Assembly: GCF_000172995.2 (NCBI RefSeq)
Contig: NC_014729.1
Coordinates: 540,001 to 572,000 of the forward strand
Reading direction: 5' to 3'
Length of the DNA: 32,000 bases
Origin: Halogeometricum borinquense DSM 11551
GTDB taxonomy: Archaea; Halobacteriota; Halobacteria; Halobacteriales; Haloferacaceae
The position numbers were made by a program, and so were the translations under genes. Within the stretch, counting starts at the first letter, position 1; the number at the start of each line of letters is the position of its first letter. Of the stretch, positions 22,565-31,506 are shown one piece after another. The notes under the pieces are model-generated. The model made no database searches. It was not told the origin of the DNA and saw nothing but the letters and a program-made list of their open reading frames with translations.

Positions 22565-24067
22565 ATGCGCGATCACTTCGAGATACGCGATGGGGACGTT
22601 GCCGGCCGAATTGGCGAACTCACTGTCCCCCGCGCGGGCGTAACAGTTGAGACGCCGGCGTTGTTGCCGGTGATCAACCCCAACATCGTCACGGTGTCGC
22701 CCGCGCGCCTCGAATCCGAGTTCGGGGCGCAGATTCTCATCACGAACTCCTACATCATCCACAAGAACGACGACTTACACGAGGAAGCCCTCGACGTCGG
22801 TCTCCACGAGATGCTGGACTTCGACGGTGCGATCATGACCGACTCGGGGTCGTTCCAACTCGCGGAGTACGGCGATATCACGGTGACGACGCGTGAGATT
22901 CTGCAGTTCCAGTACGATATCGGGACGGACATCGGCACACCCGTCGATATTCCGACGCCGCCGGACGTGCCCCGCGAACAGGCCGAGCGCGAACTCGCCG
23001 TCACCGAGGAGGCTCTGCAAGATGCCGAAGACGTTGATACTGGTGAGATGCTGGTCAACGCACCCGTACAGGGTTCGACGTATCCGGACCTCCGAGAAGA
23101 GGCAGGTCGGGCGGCTTACGAAACCGACTTGGACGTGTTCCCCATCGGCGCTGTCGTTCCGTTGATGAACTCTTACCGCTACGACGACATGGTGGACGTT
23201 GTTGCGGGCGCAAAGCGGGGACTCGGCCGCGACGCGCCAATTCACCTGTTCGGCGCGGGCCATCCGATGATGTTCGCTCTCGCCGTCGCTATGGGGTGTG
23301 ACCTGTTCGATTCAGCGGCCTACGCGCTTTACGCCCGTGACGGCCGCTACCTCACCGTCCGCGGCACCGAACATTTAGAGGACCTCGACTATCTTCCGTG
23401 TTCGTGTCCCATCTGTACGTCGCACTCGCCGGACGAACTCCGCGCGGCCGACGAGACGGAACAGGAACGTCTTCTCGCAGAACACAACCTCCACGTTTCC
23501 TTCGAGGAACTGCACCGCGTGAAGCAGGCGATTCGCTCGGGCAATCTCCTCGAACTCGTCGAGGAACGTGCACGGTCACACCCGGCGATGCTCGATGGCT
23601 ACCGCGCTCTCCTCGAACACACCGACCAACTCGAACGCGAGGACCCCGTCTCGAAAGGGTCGTTCTTCTATCTCTCCGAGGAGAGTGCGTTCCGGCCCGA
23701 GGTCCGTCGGCACCACGACAGACTCGCTCGGCTGGATGCAACGGGGACAGTTCTGCTCACACAGGGCGGGACACCGAAAGGCGATCAGTTCGACGCGACG
23801 TGGCGGGTCGTCCCGCCGTTCGGTCCGTTCCCGCGCGCCCTCTCGGAAACGTACCCGCTCACTGCGGAGGTGCCGGACCGAACCGACCGCGCCGCCTACG
23901 AGATGGCCGCCGAGGGCGTCGCACGACTCGCCGCGGAGAATCCCGAGACCGCGTTCGTCCTCGCCCACGACGGGTGGCCTGAGTCAGCACTCGAACGCGT
24001 CCCGGACGACGTGACGACGGAGTCGATCCACAGCGTCTCGCCCGAAAACGGCGAGGAGACGGTCTGA
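22565..24067 (+). CDS. tgtA: Archaeosine tRNA-guanine transglycosylase (ArcTGT catalytic protein, without PUA domain), 500 aa
   Basis: It has [44 protein letters not shown], the LFGAGHP Zn site and CSCPICTSH. Confidence 0.9.
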
Positions 24068-24970: not shown

Positions 24971-27004
24971 ATGCAACGCGCATTGACAGTGTTCGTAACG
25001 TTGGTCGTTCTCGTCGGAACCGCTCCGGCGGGCGCGGCCGCAACGCCCGCGGCGCAGCAGTCGTCGGGGGCGTCGGTATCGTTCGCCGCACAATCATCCG
25101 GTGGTTCGACGGTCGTCGTGGAAAACGTCACACTTCCCGACGGCGGGTTTGTCACAATCCACGACGCATCCGTCGCAGACGGTAATGTCCTCGGGAGCGT
25201 TGTCGGGTCGTCGGCGTATCTCGATGCGGGAACGCACGAGAACGTGACCGTTCACCTCGACGAACCGCTCTCGGAATCCGGCGCGTTCGTCGCCATGCCG
25301 CACATGGACACCGACGGTGACCGCGTTTACGACTTCGTCGCGGACAACGGCGAAACCGACGGTCCGTACACGGCCGACGGGAGCGCCGTCATCTCGCAGG
25401 CGAACGTCACCGTCTCTGCGACAGTGTCGATGTCGGACCAGCCGACCGACGGCACGTCCGTCGTCGTTGACCGCGTGGAACTCTCCGACGGTGGGTTCGT
25501 GACGGTTCACGACGCCTCTGTCACCGAGGGTGAAGTGTTCGAGAGCATCCGCGGCACGTCCGCATATCTCGAAGCGGGCGTCCACGAGAACGTCCGCATC
25601 ACTCTCGACACGCCTGTCGAGAAGAACACCACGCTGGTTCCGATGGCACACATGGACACCGACGGCGACCAGATGTACACCTTCCCCGAAAGCGAAGGTG
25701 AGACGGACGGTCCGTACACGGCTAACGGCAGCGCTGTCGTCGATACCGCCGCCGTGACGCTCTCGGAGACGGCGAACGTCACCTTCTCTGCGCAGTCCTC
25801 CGGCGGACAGTCCGTCGTCGTTGACTCCGCGTACCTGCCAGAAGGCGGGTTCGTGACGGTTCACGACGCGACGCTGAACGATGGTGCGGTGTTCGAGAGT
25901 ATCCGCGGCACCTCCGCGTATCTCGCCCCCGGCCTGCACAAGAACGTCCGCGTCAGCCTCGATGCGCCGCTGAACAACTCCACGACGCTCGTTCCGATGG
26001 CGCACATGGATACGGACGACAATCAGGAATACACGTTTCCTGAAAGCGAGGGCGAGGCGGACGGTCCGTACACGGCTGACGGCGGTGCCGTCGTCGCGCA
26101 GGCCAACGTCACGCTCTCGGCCAGCGTTGACATGTCGATGCAGGCGTCTGACGGCCACAGCGTCGTCGTGGACCGCGTCGAACTTTCCGAAGGCGGGTTC
26201 GTGGTTGTCCACGATTCCTCCCTGTTCGCCGGCGAAGTTGAGGGAAGCATCCTCGGCACCTCTGACTACCTCGAACCGGGTGTCCACGAGAACGTCACCG
26301 TGACGTTCGCAGAGCCGATTCGCGCCTCGCAGACGCTGGTGCCGATGGCGCATATGGACACGAACGGCAACGAAGCATACGATTTCCCCGAAGCGGACGG
26401 CCCGTACACCGCAGGCGGTAACGCGGTCGTCGATACGGCCCGTACCTCGGTGAACGCCGTCGTCACCGCCGCCGACCAGACGACTGACGGACAGACGGTC
26501 ACTATCGACTCCGTGACGCTCCACGACGGCGGGTTCGTCACTGTCCACGACGCAACCGTCTCCGAGGGTGCTGTGTTCGAGAGCGTGCGCGGCACGTCCG
26601 CGTATCTCTCGCCCGGGACCCACGAGAACGTCACTGTCGAACTCTCCAAGCCGCTGACCGAGACGACGACGATTGTTCCGATGGCGCACATGGACACGAA
26701 CGGCAACGAGGCGTACGACTTCGTGACCAGTGACGGTGCAGAGGACGGTCCCTACGTTGCCCTCGGCGGCGCGGTCGTCGCGACCGCCGAAGCCTCGGTC
26801 GAAGACGGCGAGATGACCGAGACCGAGATGAACGCAGAGACGATGACGGAAACCGAAATGGCGGACGAAGAGACTGAGATGGAAACCGGGACTGAGATGA
26901 ACGAGGCGACGGACGGCACCGATACCGGAACGCCCGGATTCGGCGTCGTTGTCGCCATCATCGCACTCGTCGCCGCGGCCCTTATCGCTGTCCGCCGCGA
27001 CTAA
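24971..27004 (+). CDS. Secreted cell-surface protein with five tandem domains of about 115 aa and a PGF-CTERM (archaeosortase) anchor, 677 aa
   Basis: It has a signal peptide (MQRALTVFVTLVVLVGTAPAGAAA), five homologous repeats and an acidic Met/Thr/Glu linker. The C-terminus is TPGFGVVVAIIALVAAALIAVRRD. Confidence 0.85.
   Translation: MQRALTVFVTLVVLVGTAPAGAAATPAAQQSSGASVSFAAQSSGGSTVVVENVTLPDGGFVTIHDASVADGNVLGSVVGSSAYLDAGTHENVTVHLDEPLSESGAFVAMPHMDTDGDRVYDFVADNGETDGPYTADGSAVISQANVTVSATVSMSDQPTDGTSVVVDRVELSDGGFVTVHDASVTEGEVFESIRGTSAYLEAGVHENVRITLDTPVEKNTTLVPMAHMDTDGDQMYTFPESEGETDGPYTANGSAVVDTAAVTLSETANVTFSAQSSGGQSVVVDSAYLPEGGFVTVHDATLNDGAVFESIRGTSAYLAPGLHKNVRVSLDAPLNNSTTLVPMAHMDTDDNQEYTFPESEGEADGPYTADGGAVVAQANVTLSASVDMSMQASDGHSVVVDRVELSEGGFVVVHDSSLFAGEVEGSILGTSDYLEPGVHENVTVTFAEPIRASQTLVPMAHMDTNGNEAYDFPEADGPYTAGGNAVVDTARTSVNAVVTAADQTTDGQTVTIDSVTLHDGGFVTVHDATVSEGAVFESVRGTSAYLSPGTHENVTVELSKPLTETTTIVPMAHMDTNGNEAYDFVTSDGAEDGPYVALGGAVVATAEASVEDGEMTETEMNAETMTETEMADEETEMETGTEMNEATDGTDTGTPGFGVVVAIIALVAAALIAVRRD
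25070..26800 (+). repeat. Five diverged tandem coding repeats (about 330-350 nt each)
   Basis: Each unit contains GGFVT(V/I)HD(A/S), GTSAYL..G.HENV and PMAHMDT(D/N)G(D/N)..Y.F...(E)DGPYTA.G.AVV. The periodicity is visible in the translated ORF. Confidence 0.85.
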
Positions 27005-27837: not shown

Positions 27838-29595
27838 ATGACTGACTACTTCGAGATTCACGGGCGCGACGGGGCGGCCCGTCTCGGCGAACTCCGACTC
27901 GCCGATCCCGTGACGACTCCCGCTCTCGCCGACGAGGTGGTGGAGGACACAGGGAGTCTCTGGGCTGCAGAGCGGGACGTTCCCGAGGGGGCCGACGACG
28001 TGCTGACGGTGCTTCCCCACCGGTCGTTCCCCGCCGGAACCGACGACAAAGTACAGTCGTCGTTCGCCGTCGATTCCCCTGACGTTGACTATCCCTCAGC
28101 AGCCGTCGTCACCGCTGAGACGGCCACCGACGCCGGTTCGGACGCGTATATCCTCTCGAACGCACAGGGGTTCGTCGGCCACGCCTCCGCGTTCCGCGAC
28201 GCTATCGTCGCCGCAAAAGATGCGCTTCCCGCCGATACGGCACTCTATCTTTCGGGTGTCGCCACGCCGCGCAACGTCGCCACGCTCGTCTACGCCGGGG
28301 TTGACCTCGTAGACGCCAAACTCGCCCGCGTAAAGGGCCGACAGGGGATGTATCTCACGAGCGAGAACGAGTATTTCCTCGAAGACCTTGATGAACTCCC
28401 CTGCACCTGTGCGGCGTGTCAGACGCCCCGTGAGGAGTTCACCCACGAAGACTGTGCGGCGCACAACGTGAACGCGCTCCGCGCAGAACTCGCAACTGTT
28501 CGCCAGCGGATTCGAGACGGCCGTTTGCGTGATTATATCGAAGGACAGGCCCGCCACAACCAGTGGTTGACCGCCGCCTTCCGGGAGTTCGACCAGCAGT
28601 ACGGCTACCTCGAAGAGCGGACGCCTCTCATCCGGAACTCAGAGATTGCCGCGGCCTCTTCGGACAGCATTCGGCGCGTCGAGATTCAACGGTTCGCAGA
28701 GCGGGTGACGTCGCGCTACAAGAACCGATTCGATAATCCGCTCGTCCTCGTTCCGTGTTCGGCGACGAAACCGTACAGCGAATCGCAGAGTCACAGCCAG
28801 TTCCACGACGCCGTGCAGTTCCGTGCGCATCTTGCCTCGATGACCTCTCCGATCGGTGTCGTCCCGTCGGAACTCGAACTCACCTATCCCGCCCAGCACT
28901 ACGACACCGTGGTGACGGGGCGGTGGTCCGAAGACGAAAAGCAGTTCGTCGCCAGTGTCCTCACACAGTATCTCGAACGCAACGACTATCCGCGGGTTGT
29001 CGCACACGTCCCCGAACACGGCTACCGCGACATCTGCGAACGCGTCGAGCAGGAAGTCGATGTACCGTTCGAGTACACCGTCGAGGACCACCCGACGACC
29101 ACAGACTCCATCGCCAACCTGATGTCCACGCTACAGGGCGAACTGAAGTACTCAAAGCGGGAACGCCAGCACAACACCGTGAAAGCGATTGCCGACTATC
29201 AATTCGGTGACGGTGCTGGTGACGCGCTCTTCGCTGACGTGGACGTGCAGATGACGAGTCGCTACCCGAAACTCCAGGTCAGAAACGGCGACGGCGATCA
29301 GTTGGCCGCGATGGTACCGCAGTACGGCGTTCTCTCCTTTACGCTCGCCGGTGCGCGTGTCTGGAGCGACTCGGACGCACCAACGAAACGCGTCGAAATC
29401 GACAACTTCGCGCCGCACGGGAGTGTCCTCGCACCCGGTGTCGTGGACGCGGACGACGATATTCGCGTGGGCGACGAAGTCATCGTCGAAGGCCCGAAGG
29501 CGTTCGCCGTCGGCCGCGCGGAGATGTTCGGCGCGGAGATGACCGAAAGTACGCGCGGCGTCGCCGTCGAAGTACGCCACGTCGAAGAGAAGTAG
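27838..29595 (+). CDS. arcS: Archaeosine synthase ArcS (TgtA2 paralogue with C-terminal PUA domain), 585 aa
   Basis: It has a TGT-like N-terminus (FEIHGRDGAARLGELRL), Zn motif CTCAAC...H, and the PC-X3-KPY-X2-S-X2-H-like segment LVPCSATKPYSESQSH. A PUA-like C-terminus is present (GDEVIVEGPKAFAVGRAEM...GVAVEVRHV). Confidence 0.85.
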   Translation: MTDYFEIHGRDGAARLGELRLADPVTTPALADEVVEDTGSLWAAERDVPEGADDVLTVLPHRSFPAGTDDKVQSSFAVDSPDVDYPSAAVVTAETATDAGSDAYILSNAQGFVGHASAFRDAIVAAKDALPADTALYLSGVATPRNVATLVYAGVDLVDAKLARVKGRQGMYLTSENEYFLEDLDELPCTCAACQTPREEFTHEDCAAHNVNALRAELATVRQRIRDGRLRDYIEGQARHNQWLTAAFREFDQQYGYLEERTPLIRNSEIAAASSDSIRRVEIQRFAERVTSRYKNRFDNPLVLVPCSATKPYSESQSHSQFHDAVQFRAHLASMTSPIGVVPSELELTYPAQHYDTVVTGRWSEDEKQFVASVLTQYLERNDYPRVVAHVPEHGYRDICERVEQEVDVPFEYTVEDHPTTTDSIANLMSTLQGELKYSKRERQHNTVKAIADYQFGDGAGDALFADVDVQMTSRYPKLQVRNGDGDQLAAMVPQYGVLSFTLAGARVWSDSDAPTKRVEIDNFAPHGSVLAPGVVDADDDIRVGDEVIVEGPKAFAVGRAEMFGAEMTESTRGVAVEVRHVEEK

Positions 29596-29680: not shown

Positions 29681-30085
29681 ATGACAGACGATACCAGCGA
29701 CCGACGGATTTCGCTCGGCGTCCCACAGCAAATTCTCGACTCACTTCCCGAGGATGGCGGGAACGCGGCGGCGGATCTGAAACGGGCAGTCGAGGGTATC
29801 GAGACGAGTTTGAACGATGCGTTCGAGCGGGCAGAGTCGGATTCCGAGGCGGCGAGTTACGCCGTTGACGCCATCGAACACCTCGAAGACCGGATGGAGA
29901 CGTACGACGCGTTCGTTCCTGAACTCCGCGCGTGGGGCCAGTCGCCAATCTATGCTATCGCGTGGCGAAACCTCCAAGCCGACCTCATCGCGCAAATTCG
30001 AGCGTACGACTGGCTCGACACGCACATCGAACGCGAGCGGAACTACCGACTAGTCGAAGACGGAATTAGGTTCGACAAGCGCTGA
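29681..30085 (+). CDS. Hypothetical acidic helical protein (134 aa)
   Basis: It has haloarchaeal composition and an ATG at 29681, two codons inside the ORF-track start. I recognise no motif. Confidence 0.5.
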   Translation: MTDDTSDRRISLGVPQQILDSLPEDGGNAAADLKRAVEGIETSLNDAFERAESDSEAASYAVDAIEHLEDRMETYDAFVPELRAWGQSPIYAIAWRNLQADLIAQIRAYDWLDTHIERERNYRLVEDGIRFDKR

Positions 30086-30131
30086 ACACGACGGCGCGCA
30101 CTTTTTTGGCCGCCGGAACGCATCGATACGT

Positions 30132-30416
30132 ATGAGGGTGCAGATGCGGTTCTTCGCCAATTTCCGTGAGGCGGTGGGGACGAAGACCATCGAACGAGAC
30201 TACGAGGTGACGACCGTCGGCGACGCCCTGCGCGAACTCGAAGCCGAGTACAGTGGTCTTGCGGGGGAACTCCTCGAAGACGGCCACGTCCGTCCGCAAG
30301 TGAACGTGCTGTTGAACGGCCGCGACGTGCAACACGAACAGGGCATCGAAACCGAACTCGGCGACGAAGATACGCTCAGTATCTTCCCGCCGGTCGCCGG
30401 AGGTATGCGTGATTGA
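30132..30416 (+). CDS. MoaD/ThiS/SAMP-type ubiquitin-fold (beta-grasp) protein, 94 aa, with the C-terminus ...FPPVAGG followed by Met-Arg-Asp
   Basis: The pattern FANFREAVG...TVGDALRELE...VNVLLNG...GDEDTLSIFPPVAGG parallels Haloferax SAMP1/MoaD as I remember it (...TVGDALDAL...INVLRNG...GDELALFPPVSGG). The frame continues ATG CGT GAT TGA (30405-30416). Confidence 0.75.
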   Translation: MRVQMRFFANFREAVGTKTIERDYEVTTVGDALRELEAEYSGLAGELLEDGHVRPQVNVLLNGRDVQHEQGIETELGDEDTLSIFPPVAGGMRD

Positions 30417-30687
30417 CGACGATGAAGGGACGGTAACGCGTGAGAAATCGTTCCGCGGAATCTCAATGCGTCTCGCCGGTCAGTACCTCGAAAATCTAGG
30501 CGGCGAACGCGTCGCAGAGGACCGTGTTGAGGGCGACGGGTGGACCGCGTCGCTCTCGGCCCAGAAGGTTCCTATCGGGCCGACTATCGAGCTCACCGAG
30601 GTCACCGTCACGTTCGAGGGCGACCCGAGCATCCTTGACGACCTCATCGACCGCTTCTCCCAGAAGGCGATGCGGGCGGGCGGCTAA
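30409..30687 (+). CDS. Small conserved-looking protein (92 aa) overlapping the Ubl gene by 8 nt and ending ...KAMRAGG
   Basis: The GTG start at 30409 lies inside the last codons of the Ubl gene. It has acidic composition and a TAA stop at 30685-30687. It may correspond to a MoaD-associated domain described in archaea, but that memory is unverified. Confidence 0.55.
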   Translation: MIDDDEGTVTREKSFRGISMRLAGQYLENLGGERVAEDRVEGDGWTASLSAQKVPIGPTIELTEVTVTFEGDPSILDDLIDRFSQKAMRAGG

Positions 30688-30692
30688 CTCGG

Positions 30693-31052
30693 ATGACGAC
30701 GACGGTTCCGCTGGACGGCGACGTTCTTCTCCTTGCGGGTGCGCGTGCCAGCGTCACTCCCAACCAACTACCTGACCTCGTTCATCGCGCGCAGTCGTAT
30801 CTTGTTCAACGGACTGCAGAGTACGACCGCCGGTTCGAGTGCATTTACGACGACGCCGACCGGTCTGTCTTTCTCGTTCCTAAGGACCACTGGGCCGAAC
30901 TCGGATCGGAGCTCGAACTCGAAAACCGGGAGGCAGACGCACTCCGCCGCGCACACGAACAGCAACTGCTCCGCATCGGCACGAAACACGGGCGACGTGA
31001 CGAGTTCGAGTCCGCAATGGAGATTCGAGAAGCCGTCGTCGTCGGTCGATAG
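30693..31052 (+). CDS. Hypothetical protein (119 aa)
   Basis: Its ATG is 5 nt after the previous stop. It has acidic/helical composition. I recognise no motif. Confidence 0.55.
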   Translation: MTTTVPLDGDVLLLAGARASVTPNQLPDLVHRAQSYLVQRTAEYDRRFECIYDDADRSVFLVPKDHWAELGSELELENREADALRRAHEQQLLRIGTKHGRRDEFESAMEIREAVVVGR

Positions 31053-31074: not shown

Positions 31075-31380
31075 CTATTCGACGTGTTCACGCCTGGTGA
31101 GTGAGCTGTAGACCCCAAATCGATCCGGGAGGATTCCCGTTCGGGCGTGAATTGCACTGGCATTCGTCTGTGCATCGATGCCGAGAACGGTTGCGTTCCC
31201 GCTAGTTGGCCGCGTGTAATCCATCAACATGTCAATGGTGGTTGACTTCCCTGCGCCGTTCGGGCCGAGGAATCCGTAGACTTCTCCTTCCCGCACCGAG
31301 AGTGAGAGGTCTGTAACTGCGGGAGTTCCGTCGTCCCGCTTTGTCAGGTCGCTTGTCTCAATGGCTGGCATGGGGACCAT
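31075..31380 (-). pseudogene. Truncated ABC transporter ATP-binding gene, N-terminal roughly 100 codons only
   Basis: It has Walker A (GPNGAGKST) and a Q-loop region (ILPDRFGVYSSLTRREHVE), then a TAG stop. No signature motif or Walker B occurs in any downstream minus frame. The space beyond is occupied by the convergent 30693-31052 gene. Confidence 0.7.
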
Positions 31381-31506
31381 CTTTTTCTGTGATCTCAACC
31401 GTTAATATTGGTTTGATTGACAGGTTCTCTGGAGACTGAAATGTCTGGGGACGACCCTATAACCCGGTTGACGAGCGTAGTGTTGCACGGTACAACGCTG
31501 CGTCCG

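What the first reader, a model, noticed from the sequence alone, without database searches (positions are those of the whole stretch)
30132..30687. SAMP/MoaD-like ubiquitin-fold gene with a capped diglycine (..PPVAGG-MRD) overlapping a second small gene that also ends in Gly-Gly, immediately downstream of arcS
Seen in the sequence:
1. The ORF at 30132-30416 has the beta-grasp MoaD/ThiS/SAMP pattern up to FPPVAGG.
2. The frame does not stop there. It continues ATG-CGT-GAT-TGA.
3. A GTG at 30409 inside these extra codons opens a 92-aa ORF with an 8-nt overlap, which fits translational coupling or a fixed stoichiometry.
4. This second protein also terminates ...KAMRAGG-stop.

Established knowledge: MoaD, ThiS and the archaeal SAMPs need a free C-terminal Gly-Gly for adenylation and thiocarboxylation by the E1-like enzyme (UbaA/MoeB). 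Ubiquitin-type proteins made with C-terminal extensions need a processing protease, such as a JAMM/MPN+ enzyme or a DUB. The characterised Haloferax SAMPs are, as I recall, encoded ending exactly at GG.

Inference:
- This is either a precursor-type archaeal Ubl that must be processed, or a Ubl kept inactive until cleavage. Either way it is paired with an obligatory small partner that may itself be a GG-terminated carrier or adaptor.
- Its position directly after arcS raises the possibility of a dedicated Ubl or sulfur/amide carrier module linked to tRNA modification rather than to Moco synthesis.
Basis: partly seen in the sequence, partly recalled or inferred. Interest (0 to 1): 0.7.

Follow-up and report, generated by a model that had tools for sequence, protein, structure and literature searches.

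The report
SAMP3 gene overlapping its GG-ended partner
This is the haloarchaeal ubiquitin-like protein SAMP3 and its conserved small partner gene, both already described; the three extra codons after SAMP3's Gly-Gly are best explained by the way the two genes overlap, and the pair sits next to tungsten/molybdenum-cofactor enzyme genes more often than next to tRNA-modification genes.

Summary
ORF 30132-30416 encodes a MoaD/ThiS-type ubiquitin-like protein ending FPPVAGG-MRD-stop. A GTG at 30409 opens a 92-aa gene with an 8-nt overlap, and that protein ends KAMRAGG. Both sequences occur unchanged in Halogeometricum borinquense records.

ORF1 is the orthologue of Haloferax SAMP3 (HVO_2177, PDB 2M19). 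ORF2 belongs to DUF1952/"MoaD_arch" (arCOG06308). Makarova and Koonin (2010) already described that family as a GG-terminated protein with a TBP-like fold, encoded beside a MoaD-like Ubl and two small unknown genes.

The post-GG tail is not a conserved cap:
- In 81 places (80 genome loci plus the window) it ranges from 0 to 47 aa, and six loci carry in-frame fusions.
- It occurs almost only where the SAMP3 stop codon overlaps or abuts the ORF2 start codon (43 of 46 adjacent junctions).
- Where the two genes lie apart, 28 of 29 SAMP3 genes stop exactly at GG.

Thermus protein 1V8C is the same Ubl-DUF1952 fusion.

arcS is not adjacent (a 134-aa gene intervenes) and is linked in only 24 of 80 loci. 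An aldehyde:ferredoxin oxidoreductase gene is linked in 45 of 80 haloarchaeal loci, and in bacterial loci too, together with MoeA, ThiF and tungstate-transport genes.

This is an ordinary member of a known but functionally unsolved module.

The parts
30132..30416 (+). SAMP3 orthologue (MoaD/ThiS-type ubiquitin-like protein, arCOG00536), 94 aa; the Ubl core ends at Gly-Gly (30399-30404)
   Evidence: Pfam ThiS E 2.9e-18 and NCBIfam NF041918 at 100 bits, with the profile ending at GG. The best solved structure is 2M19 at E 8e-30, against about 1e-8 to 5e-9 for true SAMP1 structures 2L83/3PO0/4HRO. The Ala-Gly-Gly ending is that of SAMP3 (PMC7305310). Exact match to WP_049890435.1.
30405..30413 (+). 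Three post-diglycine codons (Met-Arg-Asp) followed by TGA at 30414-30416; a non-conserved tail
   Evidence: Read directly from the sequence. Tails vary between relatives (MRD, MCD, ARD, TRD, ARE). Their presence is tied to overlap with the downstream start codon.
30409..30416 (+). 8-nt overlap between the GTG start of ORF2 and the stop of SAMP3 (GTGATTGA); a junction of the translational-coupling type
   Evidence: The same 8-nt arrangement occurs in H. limi (L001). 43 of 46 adjacent junctions have the ORF2 start within -8 to +2 nt of the end of the SAMP3 stop codon.
30409..30687 (+). DUF1952 / 'MoaD_arch' protein (arCOG06308), 92 aa, TBP-like beta-alpha-beta4-alpha fold, ends KAMRAGG
   Evidence: 393 homologues, all 120 listed ending in GG. 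AlphaFold model with pLDDT 88.8. The only significant PDB fold matches are chains of 1V8C (E 3e-5, probability 1.0); the end-to-end sequence alignment places the matching domain in the C-terminal half of 1V8C. Exact match to ADQ66210.1. Described in PMC2948915.
29681..30085 (+). Conserved small gene upstream (134 aa, DUF7971), between arcS and SAMP3
   Evidence: Found within 4 kb in 71 of 80 loci. Alignment A3 has an invariant ELRAWGQS motif. Pfam DUF7971 in the precomputed table. No PDB relative by sequence.
30693..31052 (+). Conserved small gene downstream (119 aa, DUF8048), 5 nt after the ORF2 stop
   Evidence: Found just downstream of ORF2 in 76 of 80 loci. PF26222 precomputed. AlphaFold model with pLDDT 90.4, no significant PDB fold neighbour.
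27838..29595 (+). arcS (archaeosine synthase alpha subunit); a neighbour on the same strand, linked in only part of the Halobacteria
   Evidence: NCBIfam NF040592 at 856 bits. Within 4 kb upstream of ORF2 in 24 of 80 loci. Absent from the Haloferax locus.
30102..30107 (+). T6 run in the 46-nt spacer, centred about 27 nt upstream of the SAMP3 ATG; a possible archaeal TATA-like element and/or oligo-T terminator (inference only)
   Evidence: Read from the sequence. No tool for archaeal promoters was available.

Best explanation
The locus is the Halogeometricum borinquense copy of the conserved haloarchaeal SAMP3 cluster: DUF7971, then SAMP3 (a MoaD-type Ubl), then a DUF1952 protein with a TBP-like fold that ends RAGG, then DUF8048.

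Shown here:
- The two middle genes are joined by a coupling-type junction.
- Across Halobacteria this junction slides between TAG-ATG, ATGA/GTGA 4-nt overlaps, an 8-nt overlap and complete in-frame fusion.
- Whatever lies between SAMP3's Gly-Gly codons and the partner's start codon is translated as a tail of arbitrary sequence.

The three residues MRD are such a junction by-product, not a conserved cap.

Inferred: the invariant FPPVAGG end is the functional terminus. Tails and fused partners are probably removed by a JAMM/MPN+ desampylase of the HvJAMM1 type before the E1 UbaA can adenylate SAMP3. Alternatively they lower the active fraction.

Inferred from gene fusions and neighbourhoods in archaea and bacteria: the Ubl and the DUF1952 protein act together, made in about equal amounts. 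Their common context is the maturation or control of the tungsten/molybdenum-pterin cofactor of AOR-family oxidoreductases, not archaeosine synthesis. The partner's Ub-like [ML]R[AG]GG end may be a second E1 substrate, but this is untested.
For: Identity:
- ORF1 is closest to 2M19 (E 8e-30) and much further from true SAMP1 structures. Its Ala-Gly-Gly end matches SAMP3 (PMC7305310).
- The Haloferax locus has the same order, ThiS / MoaD_arch / DUF8048.
- The ORF2 model matches only 1V8C significantly.
- A natural haloarchaeal fusion aligns end to end with 1V8C, which also has an internal FPPVAGG and ends RGGG.

Junction:
- 46 adjacent unfused junctions have tails of 0-47 aa, and 43 of them have the start codon within -8 to +2 nt of the stop codon.
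- There are 6 in-frame fusions.
- Among 29 separated pairs, 28 SAMP3 genes stop at GG (p = 3e-8).
- Tail sequences are not conserved.

Processing precedent: HvJAMM1 cleaves a linear SAMP1-MoaE fusion exactly after GG in vitro and in vivo, and cleaves SAMP3 conjugates (PMC4443979).

Functional context:
- The DUF1952 family has 193 clusters at 50% identity, and 134 of the best 150 end in GG. Members include Bacillota.
- A Ubl is directly upstream or fused in 7 of 8 non-halophile contexts.
- AFOR is adjacent in 4 of 5 long contigs, with MoeA, MoaA, ThiF and tungstate ABC genes.
- An orthologue-like AFOR lies within 4 kb in 45 of 80 haloarchaeal loci.
- aorDE ('resembling MoaD') raise the specific activity of recombinant W-AOR from 4.5 to 16 U/mg (PMC6365974, PMC9295118).
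- The module was listed in PMC2948915.
Against: - No JAMM or UbaA gene lies in the window or in the 20-kb H. borinquense locus, so processing is inferred, not shown.
- The 1V8C match covers residues on both sides of the internal diglycine in one chain, so an uncleaved form exists at least in the crystallised protein.
- In H. volcanii SAMP3 is not needed for DMSO reductase and is described as a protein modifier (PMC4443979). A role in the AOR cofactor is extrapolated from neighbourhoods.
- No AFOR gene lies within 10 kb downstream in H. borinquense itself. An insertion carrying an IS605 TnpB gene interrupts the synteny seen in Haloferax.
- I could not verify that AorE is a DUF1952 protein.
- The Fisher test ignores phylogenetic non-independence.
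- The predicted C-terminal helix of ORF2 runs almost to the GG, unlike the flexible tails of beta-grasp Ubls.
Confidence: 0.6

Rival explanations
1. Regulated precursor. The tail is a purposeful cap that keeps SAMP3 inactive until a protease exposes Gly-Gly, as in eukaryotic Ub/SUMO/NEDD8 precursors. The overlap fixes the stoichiometry with an obligatory partner.
For: 67 of the 120 closest SAMP3-like clusters carry 1-47 extra residues. Six loci are full fusions that keep FPPVAGG. A haloarchaeal protease that cuts after GG exists (PMC4443979).
Against: Tail length and sequence are not conserved even within Halogeometricum. Tails are absent in 28 of 29 loci where the genes are apart and in 16 of 46 adjacent ones. 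Tail presence tracks the position of the ORF2 start codon. No protease gene is linked.
Confidence: 0.15
2. Non-covalent complex. In tailed and fused forms the Ubl diglycine is never freed. SAMP3 and DUF1952 work as a two-domain unit, and the only activatable terminus is the partner's C-terminal RAGG.
For: Fusions occur in Halobacteria and in bacteria. The 1V8C match spans both sides of the internal diglycine in a single chain. The partner's GG is conserved in 134 of 150 cluster representatives across phyla. PMC2948915 proposed Ubl-type activity for these TBP-like proteins.
Against: FPPVAGG stays invariant in the six haloarchaeal fusions, and many species encode it as a free end. In H. volcanii the SAMP3 C-terminal Gly is isopeptide-linked to targets in a UbaA-dependent way (PMC7305310). 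The GG of ORF2 follows directly on a predicted helix. The ORF2 profile shows no similarity to ThiF/E1, although that test is weak.
Confidence: 0.15
3. An arcS-linked tRNA-modification module. The Ubl pair supplies a sulfur or amide group, or a regulatory modification, to archaeosine synthesis.
For: arcS is on the same strand 537 nt upstream of SAMP3, and tgtA is 6 kb upstream. arcS lies within 4 kb in 24 of 80 loci from about ten genera. PMC2948915 argues for an ancestral link between Ubls and tRNA modification.
Against: A separate gene (DUF7971) intervenes, and in L015, L032, L057 and L058 it stays next to arcS while SAMP3 is further away. arcS is missing from the 4-kb flank in the congener H. 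limi (L001) and from the Haloferax, Haloarcula and Natrinema loci. The homologous bacterial pair sits in AOR/Moco clusters, and archaeosine is an archaeal modification (established knowledge, not tested here). AFOR linkage is about twice as frequent.
Confidence: 0.05
4. Annotation or sequencing artefact. The true SAMP3 stops at GG and the tail reflects an error or a strain-specific mutation.
For: Many orthologues stop at GG.
Against: The exact 94-aa protein is held under H. borinquense records, and a second assembly of the species carries the tail MCD. H. limi and metagenomic relatives have 3-aa tails with the same GTGANTGA geometry.
Confidence: 0.02

Closest known systems
Haloferax volcanii SAMP3 (HVO_2177; solution structure PDB 2M19)
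   Same: MoaD-type beta-grasp Ubl ending PPVAGG. It is the best solved-structure match (E 8e-30). In Haloferax it has the same downstream neighbours, MoaD_arch and DUF8048. It is known to be isopeptide-linked to proteins through UbaA and removed by HvJAMM1 (PMC7305310, PMC4443979).
   Different: The Haloferax gene stops exactly at GG, and its partner starts 1 nt after the stop. Here three extra codons and an 8-nt overlap are present. NCBI labels the window protein 'SAMP1'.
arCOG06308 / Pfam PF09189 (DUF1952, 'MoaD_arch'): small GG-terminated protein with a TBP-like fold (Makarova and Koonin 2010, PMC2948915)
   Same: Same family, same C-terminal GG, and the same four-gene neighbourhood with a MoaD-like Ubl and two small unknown genes. 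The beta-alpha-beta4-alpha topology is reproduced by the model.
   Different: The 2010 paper called the family unique to Halobacteria. Here it has 193 clusters including Bacillota and other bacteria. The paper passages I read do not mention tails or haloarchaeal fusions. The local Pfam copy hits the window protein only below threshold.
Thermus thermophilus 'MoaD related protein', PDB 1V8C
   Same: A single chain holding a Ubl with an internal FPPVAGG plus a DUF1952 domain ending RGGG. It aligns end to end with the haloarchaeal fusion in L004 and is the only significant fold match of ORF2.
   Different: Fused rather than split, bacterial, and with no published function that I could find.
Linear Ubl-MoaE fusions processed by JAMM/MPN+ proteases (HvJAMM1; DRJAMM of Deinococcus)
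   Same: A MoaD-type Ubl whose diglycine is blocked by a peptide bond and has to be freed. Cleavage exactly after GG has been demonstrated (PMC4443979; abstract of PMC8832034).
   Different: The blocking moiety here is a 3-residue tail, or in relatives a DUF1952 domain, not MoaE. Cleavage of these substrates has not been tested.
aorD/aorE of the Aromatoleum aromaticum tungsten AOR operon
   Same: Two small genes 'resembling MoaD' encoded with a W-AOR. Adding them raises recombinant AOR activity (PMC6365974, PMC9295118). This matches the AFOR-adjacent Ubl + DUF1952 pairs and fusions found here.
   Different: I could not retrieve the AorD/AorE sequences, so the equivalence of AorE with DUF1952 is a lead, not a result.
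Eukaryotic ubiquitin/SUMO/NEDD8 precursors
   Same: The diglycine is followed by extra residues that must be removed before E1 activation.
   Different: Those tails are removed by dedicated DUB/ULP enzymes. Here the tail is variable, often absent, and explained by gene overlap.

Membership tests
MoaD/ThiS/SAMP ubiquitin-like sulfur carriers and modifiers | Sequence match to the ThiS/MoaD family profile over the whole domain | tested here: met
   PF02597 E 2.9e-18 (residues 5-91), TIGR01687 at 79.5 bits, NF041918 at 100 bits against a cut-off of 60.
MoaD/ThiS/SAMP ubiquitin-like sulfur carriers and modifiers | Beta-grasp fold | tested here: met
   Inferred from a full-length alignment with the solved structure 2M19 (E 8e-30) and with 1V8C, 2L52 and 2G1E. 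No separate model was built.
MoaD/ThiS/SAMP ubiquitin-like sulfur carriers and modifiers | Free C-terminal Gly-Gly in the primary translation product | tested here: not met
   The frame continues Met-Arg-Asp after GG. The family profiles end at GG. Maturation would be needed.
MoaD/ThiS/SAMP ubiquitin-like sulfur carriers and modifiers | Adenylation or thiocarboxylation by an E1-like enzyme (UbaA/MoeB) | not testable with these tools
   No E1 gene lies in the window or in the 20-kb locus. Biochemistry is required.
SAMP3 (HVO_2177) orthologous group | Closer to SAMP3 than to SAMP1 or SAMP2, with an Ala-Gly-Gly end and conserved synteny | tested here: met
   2M19 at 106 bits against 38-40 bits for SAMP1 structures. 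Ala precedes GG, as in SAMP3 A90 (PMC7305310). Haloferax synteny agrees. That 2M19 is HVO_2177 rests on my memory together with its 92-aa ...VAGG sequence.
DUF1952 / MoaD_arch (PF09189, arCOG06308) | Match to the family profile | tested here: inconclusive
   The local Pfam copy gives no hit for the window protein. It hits 4 of 28 family members (best E 4e-4). The precomputed tables list PF09189 for all homologues and for the H. borinquense gene.
DUF1952 / MoaD_arch (PF09189, arCOG06308) | Fold of the C-terminal domain of 1V8C (TBP-like beta-alpha-beta4-alpha) | tested here: met
   Model with pLDDT 88.8 and topology S-H-S-S-S-S-H. Foldseek hits 1V8C chains A and B at E 3e-5 and 7e-5, probability 1.0, with no other significant hit.
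DUF1952 / MoaD_arch (PF09189, arCOG06308) | Conserved C-terminal Gly-Gly | tested here: met
   120 of 120 close homologues end KA[MIL]RAGG. 134 of 150 representatives at 50% identity end in GG.
DUF1952 / MoaD_arch (PF09189, arCOG06308) | Encoded next to, or fused to, a MoaD-type Ubl | tested here: met
   A SAMP3-like gene lies within 4 kb in 80 of 80 loci. Counting the window, 46 places are adjacent and 6 are fused. In non-halophile contexts 7 of 8 are adjacent or fused.
Processed Ubl precursors (conserved C-terminal pro-peptide plus a dedicated protease) | Extension conserved in orthologues | tested here: not met
   Tails range from 0 to 47 aa with no shared sequence.
Processed Ubl precursors (conserved C-terminal pro-peptide plus a dedicated protease) | Cleavage after Gly-Gly in vivo | not testable with these tools
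   The only support is a precedent for SAMP1-MoaE with HvJAMM1 (PMC4443979).
Translationally coupled overlapping gene pairs | The stop codon of the upstream gene overlaps or abuts the start codon of the downstream gene, and this is conserved | tested here: met
   43 of 46 adjacent junctions lie within -8 to +2 nt, and 27 have the 4-nt ATGA/GTGA overlap. Coupling itself (termination-reinitiation) was not measured.

The most novel reading that the evidence does not exclude
DUF1952 proteins are a second class of E1-activated carriers that do not have the beta-grasp fold. Their Ub-like [ML]R[AG]GG end would be adenylated and thiocarboxylated, or conjugated, and they would work in tandem with a dedicated MoaD-type Ubl (SAMP3) in AOR-specific tungsten/molybdenum-pterin cofactor maturation. 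JAMM-dependent splitting of fused or tailed forms would act as the on-switch. Makarova and Koonin raised the Ubl-like idea in 2010. The AOR-specific two-carrier version and the processing switch are not in the passages I read and are not excluded by anything found here.
Probability: 0.15. Interest if true: 0.7.

Novelty: new member of a known kind. Interest (0 to 1): 0.3.

Why it matters
On its own the locus is an annotated orthologue of a published gene cluster, so it changes little.

The comparative results do sharpen an old open question, namely what SAMP3 and its GG-ended partner do:
- More than half of the closest SAMP3-like clusters are encoded with a blocked diglycine or as fusions. That predicts a maturation role for JAMM proteases in many Halobacteria.
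- The partner family is not restricted to haloarchaea. In both domains it travels with AOR-family genes, and in bacteria also with tungsten-cofactor genes.

This yields one concrete, cheap experiment in Haloferax: delete HVO_2177, its downstream partner and the DUF8048 gene, then assay AOR activity and metal/pterin loading.

The work also flags two annotation problems: these proteins are labelled 'SAMP1', and the partner gene has a truncated 73-aa start call.

Tried and rejected
- **PDB sequence searches with ORF2.** Searching with ORF2 alone and with its 28-sequence profile found only a designed protein at E 0.016-0.17. The link to 1V8C appeared only with a natural fusion as query and by fold search.
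- **E1 relationship.** A profile comparison of ORF2 with a ThiF/E1 protein, to test the published idea that it resembles the E1 C-terminal domain, gave no similarity (probability 0.2). The test used a single E1 sequence and is inconclusive.
- **Flanking genes.** Profile searches of DUF7971 and DUF8048 against the PDB found nothing. The accepted DUF8048 model has no significant fold neighbour.
- **Programmed +1 frameshift.** I considered a frameshift making a SAMP3-ORF2 fusion in this species. ORF2 is in the +1 frame, but GAT-TGA offers no re-pairing for the P-site tRNA and there is no slippery run (sequence). Rejected as unsupported.
- **Shine-Dalgarno role for the GG codons.** GGAGGT lies 4 nt before the GTG and could act as a ribosome-binding element. 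GGAGGN is used in only a minority of loci, so there is no general signal.
- **Literature.** Searching for HVO_2178 found no paper. Humbard 2010, Miranda 2014 and a 2013 review are not held. My recollection that HVO_2178 was tagged and gave no conjugates is therefore unverified and is not used.
- **UbaA and JAMM.** Neither was found in the window or in the 20-kb locus.
Full report
**Observation.**
- ORF 30132-30416 encodes 94 aa ending FPPVAGG-MRD.
- The two glycine codons are GGA GGT at 30399-30404.
- ATG CGT GAT follows at 30405-30413, and TGA lies at 30414-30416.
- GTG at 30409 opens a 92-aa ORF (30409-30687) in the +1 frame, so the two genes share 8 nt.
- That protein ends KAMRAGG.

Both ORFs have the third-position GC bias of coding regions and several hundred homologues each. 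Both proteins occur, residue for residue, in public Halogeometricum borinquense records, and another assembly of the species carries the tail MCD. The tail is therefore not a sequencing error.

One detail is wrong. arcS (27838-29595, NCBIfam NF040592 at 856 bits) is not the immediate neighbour. A conserved 134-aa gene (29681-30085) lies in between.

**What the two genes are.** ORF1 matches Pfam ThiS and the archaeal MoaD models, and the profiles end at the diglycine. NCBI calls it 'SAMP1', but three things point to SAMP3:
- Its best solved relative is 2M19 at E 8e-30, which I recall as Haloferax volcanii HVO_2177 (a 92-aa protein ending VAGG).
- The true SAMP1 structures score only about 1e-8 to 5e-9.
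- SAMP3 is the paralogue with Ala90 before the diglycine (PMC7305310), whereas SAMP1 ends VSGG (PMC4443979).

ORF1 is therefore the SAMP3 orthologue. SAMP3 is known to be attached to lysines of target proteins in a UbaA-dependent way, including the active-site lysine of MoaE, and to be removed by HvJAMM1 (PMC7305310, PMC4443979).

ORF2 belongs to a family in which all 120 listed homologues end KA[MIL]RAGG.
- An AlphaFold model built on 28 sequences is confident (pLDDT 88.8). Its order of elements is strand-helix-four strands-helix, which is the TBP-like topology.
- Its only significant fold matches in the PDB are the chains of 1V8C, the Thermus thermophilus 'MoaD related protein' (E 3e-5, probability 1.0).
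- The family is Pfam PF09189 (DUF1952, 'MoaD_arch') in the precomputed tables. The local Pfam copy detects it only weakly.

**Already in the literature.** Makarova and Koonin (2010, PMC2948915) searched arCOGs for small proteins with a conserved C-terminal GG. They reported arCOG06308 as a protein with a TBP-like fold and a C-terminal GG. They placed it in a conserved haloarchaeal neighbourhood with a MoaD-like Ubl (arCOG00536) and two small uncharacterized proteins (arCOG06307, arCOG06309), and suggested Ubl-type activity. That is this cluster. The flanking genes are DUF7971 (29681-30085) and DUF8048 (30693-31052).

**Why there is a tail.** I collected 80 genome loci that encode the ORF2 family and read every junction, adding the window as an 81st place.

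| Arrangement of SAMP3 and ORF2 | Places | Tail after GG |
|---|---|---|
| Adjacent, not fused (includes the window) | 46 | none in 16; 1-47 aa in 30 |
| In-frame fusion (Ubl...FPPVAGG-linker-DUF1952...RAGG) | 6 | not applicable |
| More than 400 nt apart | 29 | none in 28; present in 1 |

- In 43 of the 46 adjacent junctions an ORF2 start codon lies within -8 to +2 nt of the end of the SAMP3 stop codon. The forms are TAG-ATG, the 4-nt overlaps ATGA/GTGA (27 cases), and the 8-nt GTGANTGA seen here and in H. limi.
- The six fusions are in Halospeciosus, Halopenitus (two), Halostella and two metagenome-assembled genomes.
- The contrast between adjacent and separated pairs gives Fisher p = 3e-8, without correction for phylogeny.
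- Tail sequences differ even among close relatives (MRD, MCD, ARD, TRD, ARE).
- Among the 120 closest clusters, 53 end at GG and 67 carry tails.

The simplest reading is that the stop codon is held at the partner's start codon, and the codons in between are translated as a by-product. The tail is not a conserved pro-peptide.

The diglycine motif itself is kept in the six in-frame fusions. HvJAMM1 cleaves a linear SAMP1-MoaE fusion exactly after GG both in vitro and in vivo (PMC4443979). Removal of tails and fused partners by a JAMM protease is therefore a fair inference, but nothing here shows it. No JAMM or E1 gene lies in the window or in the 20-kb locus.

**The same architecture in bacteria.** A natural haloarchaeal fusion aligns end to end with 1V8C (residues 5-183 against 3-168). 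1V8C has FPPVAGG at residues 81-87 and ends SRGGG. A profile search of 1.8 billion representative proteins found 193 clusters of the DUF1952 family. Of the best 150, 134 end in GG, usually as [ML]R[AG]GG, and about a dozen are Ubl fusions of 175-225 aa. Named members come from the Bacillota Microaerobacter and Heliorestis. The family is therefore not unique to Halobacteria.

**What it is linked to.**
- **Non-halophile contexts.** In 7 of 8, a ThiS/MoaD-family gene is directly upstream or fused. In 4 of 5 long contigs an AFOR-family gene (tungsten/molybdenum-pterin aldehyde:ferredoxin oxidoreductase) is adjacent. It comes with MoeA, MoaA, ThiF and tungstate-type ABC transporter genes.
- **Haloarchaeal loci.** An AFOR gene 48-59% identical to the Bacillota one over the aligned stretch lies within 4 kb of ORF2 in 45 of 80 loci. 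In 43 of these it is downstream and convergent.
- **arcS.** It lies within 4 kb in 24 of 80 loci. It is absent from the Haloferax locus, where AFOR lies 6 kb downstream. It is also absent from the 4-kb flank of the congener H. limi.
- **DUF7971.** In several loci DUF7971 stays next to arcS while SAMP3 is further away.
- **H. borinquense itself.** A stretch of about 9 kb that includes an IS605 TnpB gene separates DUF8048 from the AzlCD genes that follow it in Haloferax. A MOT1-type molybdate transporter gene lies 8 kb downstream, and no AFOR gene lies within 10 kb.
- **Experiment in bacteria.** In Aromatoleum, two genes 'resembling MoaD' (aorDE) in the tungsten AOR operon raise the specific activity of the recombinant enzyme from 4.5 to 16 U/mg (PMC6365974, PMC9295118). 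I could not check whether AorE is a DUF1952 protein.

**Mechanism proposed.**
- Shown: the gene identities, the coupling-type junction, the variability of the tail, the fusions, and the neighbourhoods.
- Inferred: SAMP3 and the DUF1952 protein are made together and act together. Tails and fusions have to be cut after GG before UbaA can use SAMP3. The shared context is the maturation or control of the AOR-type metallopterin cofactor.

The rival readings are a purposeful cap, a never-cleaved two-domain unit whose only active end is the partner's GG, and an arcS-linked module. I rate them lower for the reasons given with each. The function of the DUF1952 protein and of DUF8048 remains unknown. 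The DUF8048 model is confident but has no structural neighbour in the PDB.

**Verdict.** This is a correct observation of an ordinary, already annotated member of a published gene cluster. The 'capped diglycine' is common among orthologues and is explained by gene overlap. The suggested tie to archaeosine is weak. What remains of interest is the unsolved role of the SAMP3/DUF1952 pair, for which the AOR linkage gives a testable lead.

Noticed in passing
window 30132-30416: NCBIfam NF041918 and RefSeq name this protein 'ubiquitin-like small modifier protein 1' (SAMP1). It is far closer to the SAMP3-type structure 2M19 (106 bits) than to the SAMP1 structures (38-40 bits), and it has the SAMP3 Ala-Gly-Gly end. 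The label looks misleading for the whole orthologous group.
   Followed up: partly
window 30409-30687: RefSeq also carries a 73-aa version of ORF2 (WP_049890549.1). It appears to start at the internal Met20 (30466), which would avoid the overlap but remove the invariant REKSFRGIS first strand. The family alignment and the model favour the GTG at 30409.
   Followed up: partly
window 30102-30107: A T6 run lies in the 46-nt spacer between DUF7971 and SAMP3, centred about 27 nt before the SAMP3 ATG. It could be an archaeal TATA-like box for a leaderless transcript, an oligo-T terminator for the arcS-DUF7971 transcript, or both.
   Followed up: no
window 22565-24067 and 27838-29595: tgtA (TGT domain, E 1e-86) and arcS, two archaeosine-pathway genes, lie 3.8 kb apart on the same strand. 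Between them are a small HTH gene, a DUF8036 gene, a surface protein and a PNPOx-like gene.
   Followed up: partly
window 24971-27004: A 677-aa secreted protein made of five DUF7282 repeats, with a PGF-CTERM archaeosortase signal and an acidic Thr/Glu-rich linker.
   Followed up: no
window 31075-31398 (-): A 107-aa ORF holding only the N-terminal part of an ABC ATPase domain (profile positions 2-78 of 137). It is probably a gene remnant. It sits exactly where synteny with Haloferax (DUF8048 then AzlCD) is broken. About 3 kb beyond the window there is an IS605 OrfB/TnpB gene (L090 14126-15451).
   Followed up: partly
window 30693-31052; model m5ae185480b3a: DUF8048 lies just downstream of ORF2 in 76 of 80 loci. 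It gives a confident AlphaFold model (pLDDT 90.4) with no significant PDB fold neighbour. Glu49, Trp67, Arg86, His88, Arg101 and Arg112 are invariant in both alignments and Gln91 in one (A2, A4), which hints at an active or binding site.
   Followed up: partly
L015, L032, L057, L058 (and window 29681-30085): DUF7971 stays within about 50-90 nt of the arcS stop codon in loci where SAMP3 has moved 0.5-1.6 kb away. This small gene may belong with arcS rather than with the Ubl pair.
   Followed up: no
L065 3465-3880 (Haloquadratum walsbyi J07HQW1): SAMP3 carries a 47-aa post-GG tail of low complexity (…QTQTQLQLQFQFDFD…). It still ends in a 4-nt overlap with the partner's start codon.
   Followed up: no
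L081 6001-6282 (Heliorestis convoluta): A DUF1952 gene ending in GG with no Ubl, AFOR or Moco gene nearby. Upstream is a 101-aa protein with a hydrophobic N-terminal stretch, and downstream is a Zip transporter. It is the one exception among the eight non-halophile contexts.
   Followed up: no
L090 18386-19492 (H. borinquense, 8 kb downstream of the window's DUF8048): An MFS_MOT1-type molybdate transporter gene lies near the cluster, next to AzlCD.
   Followed up: no
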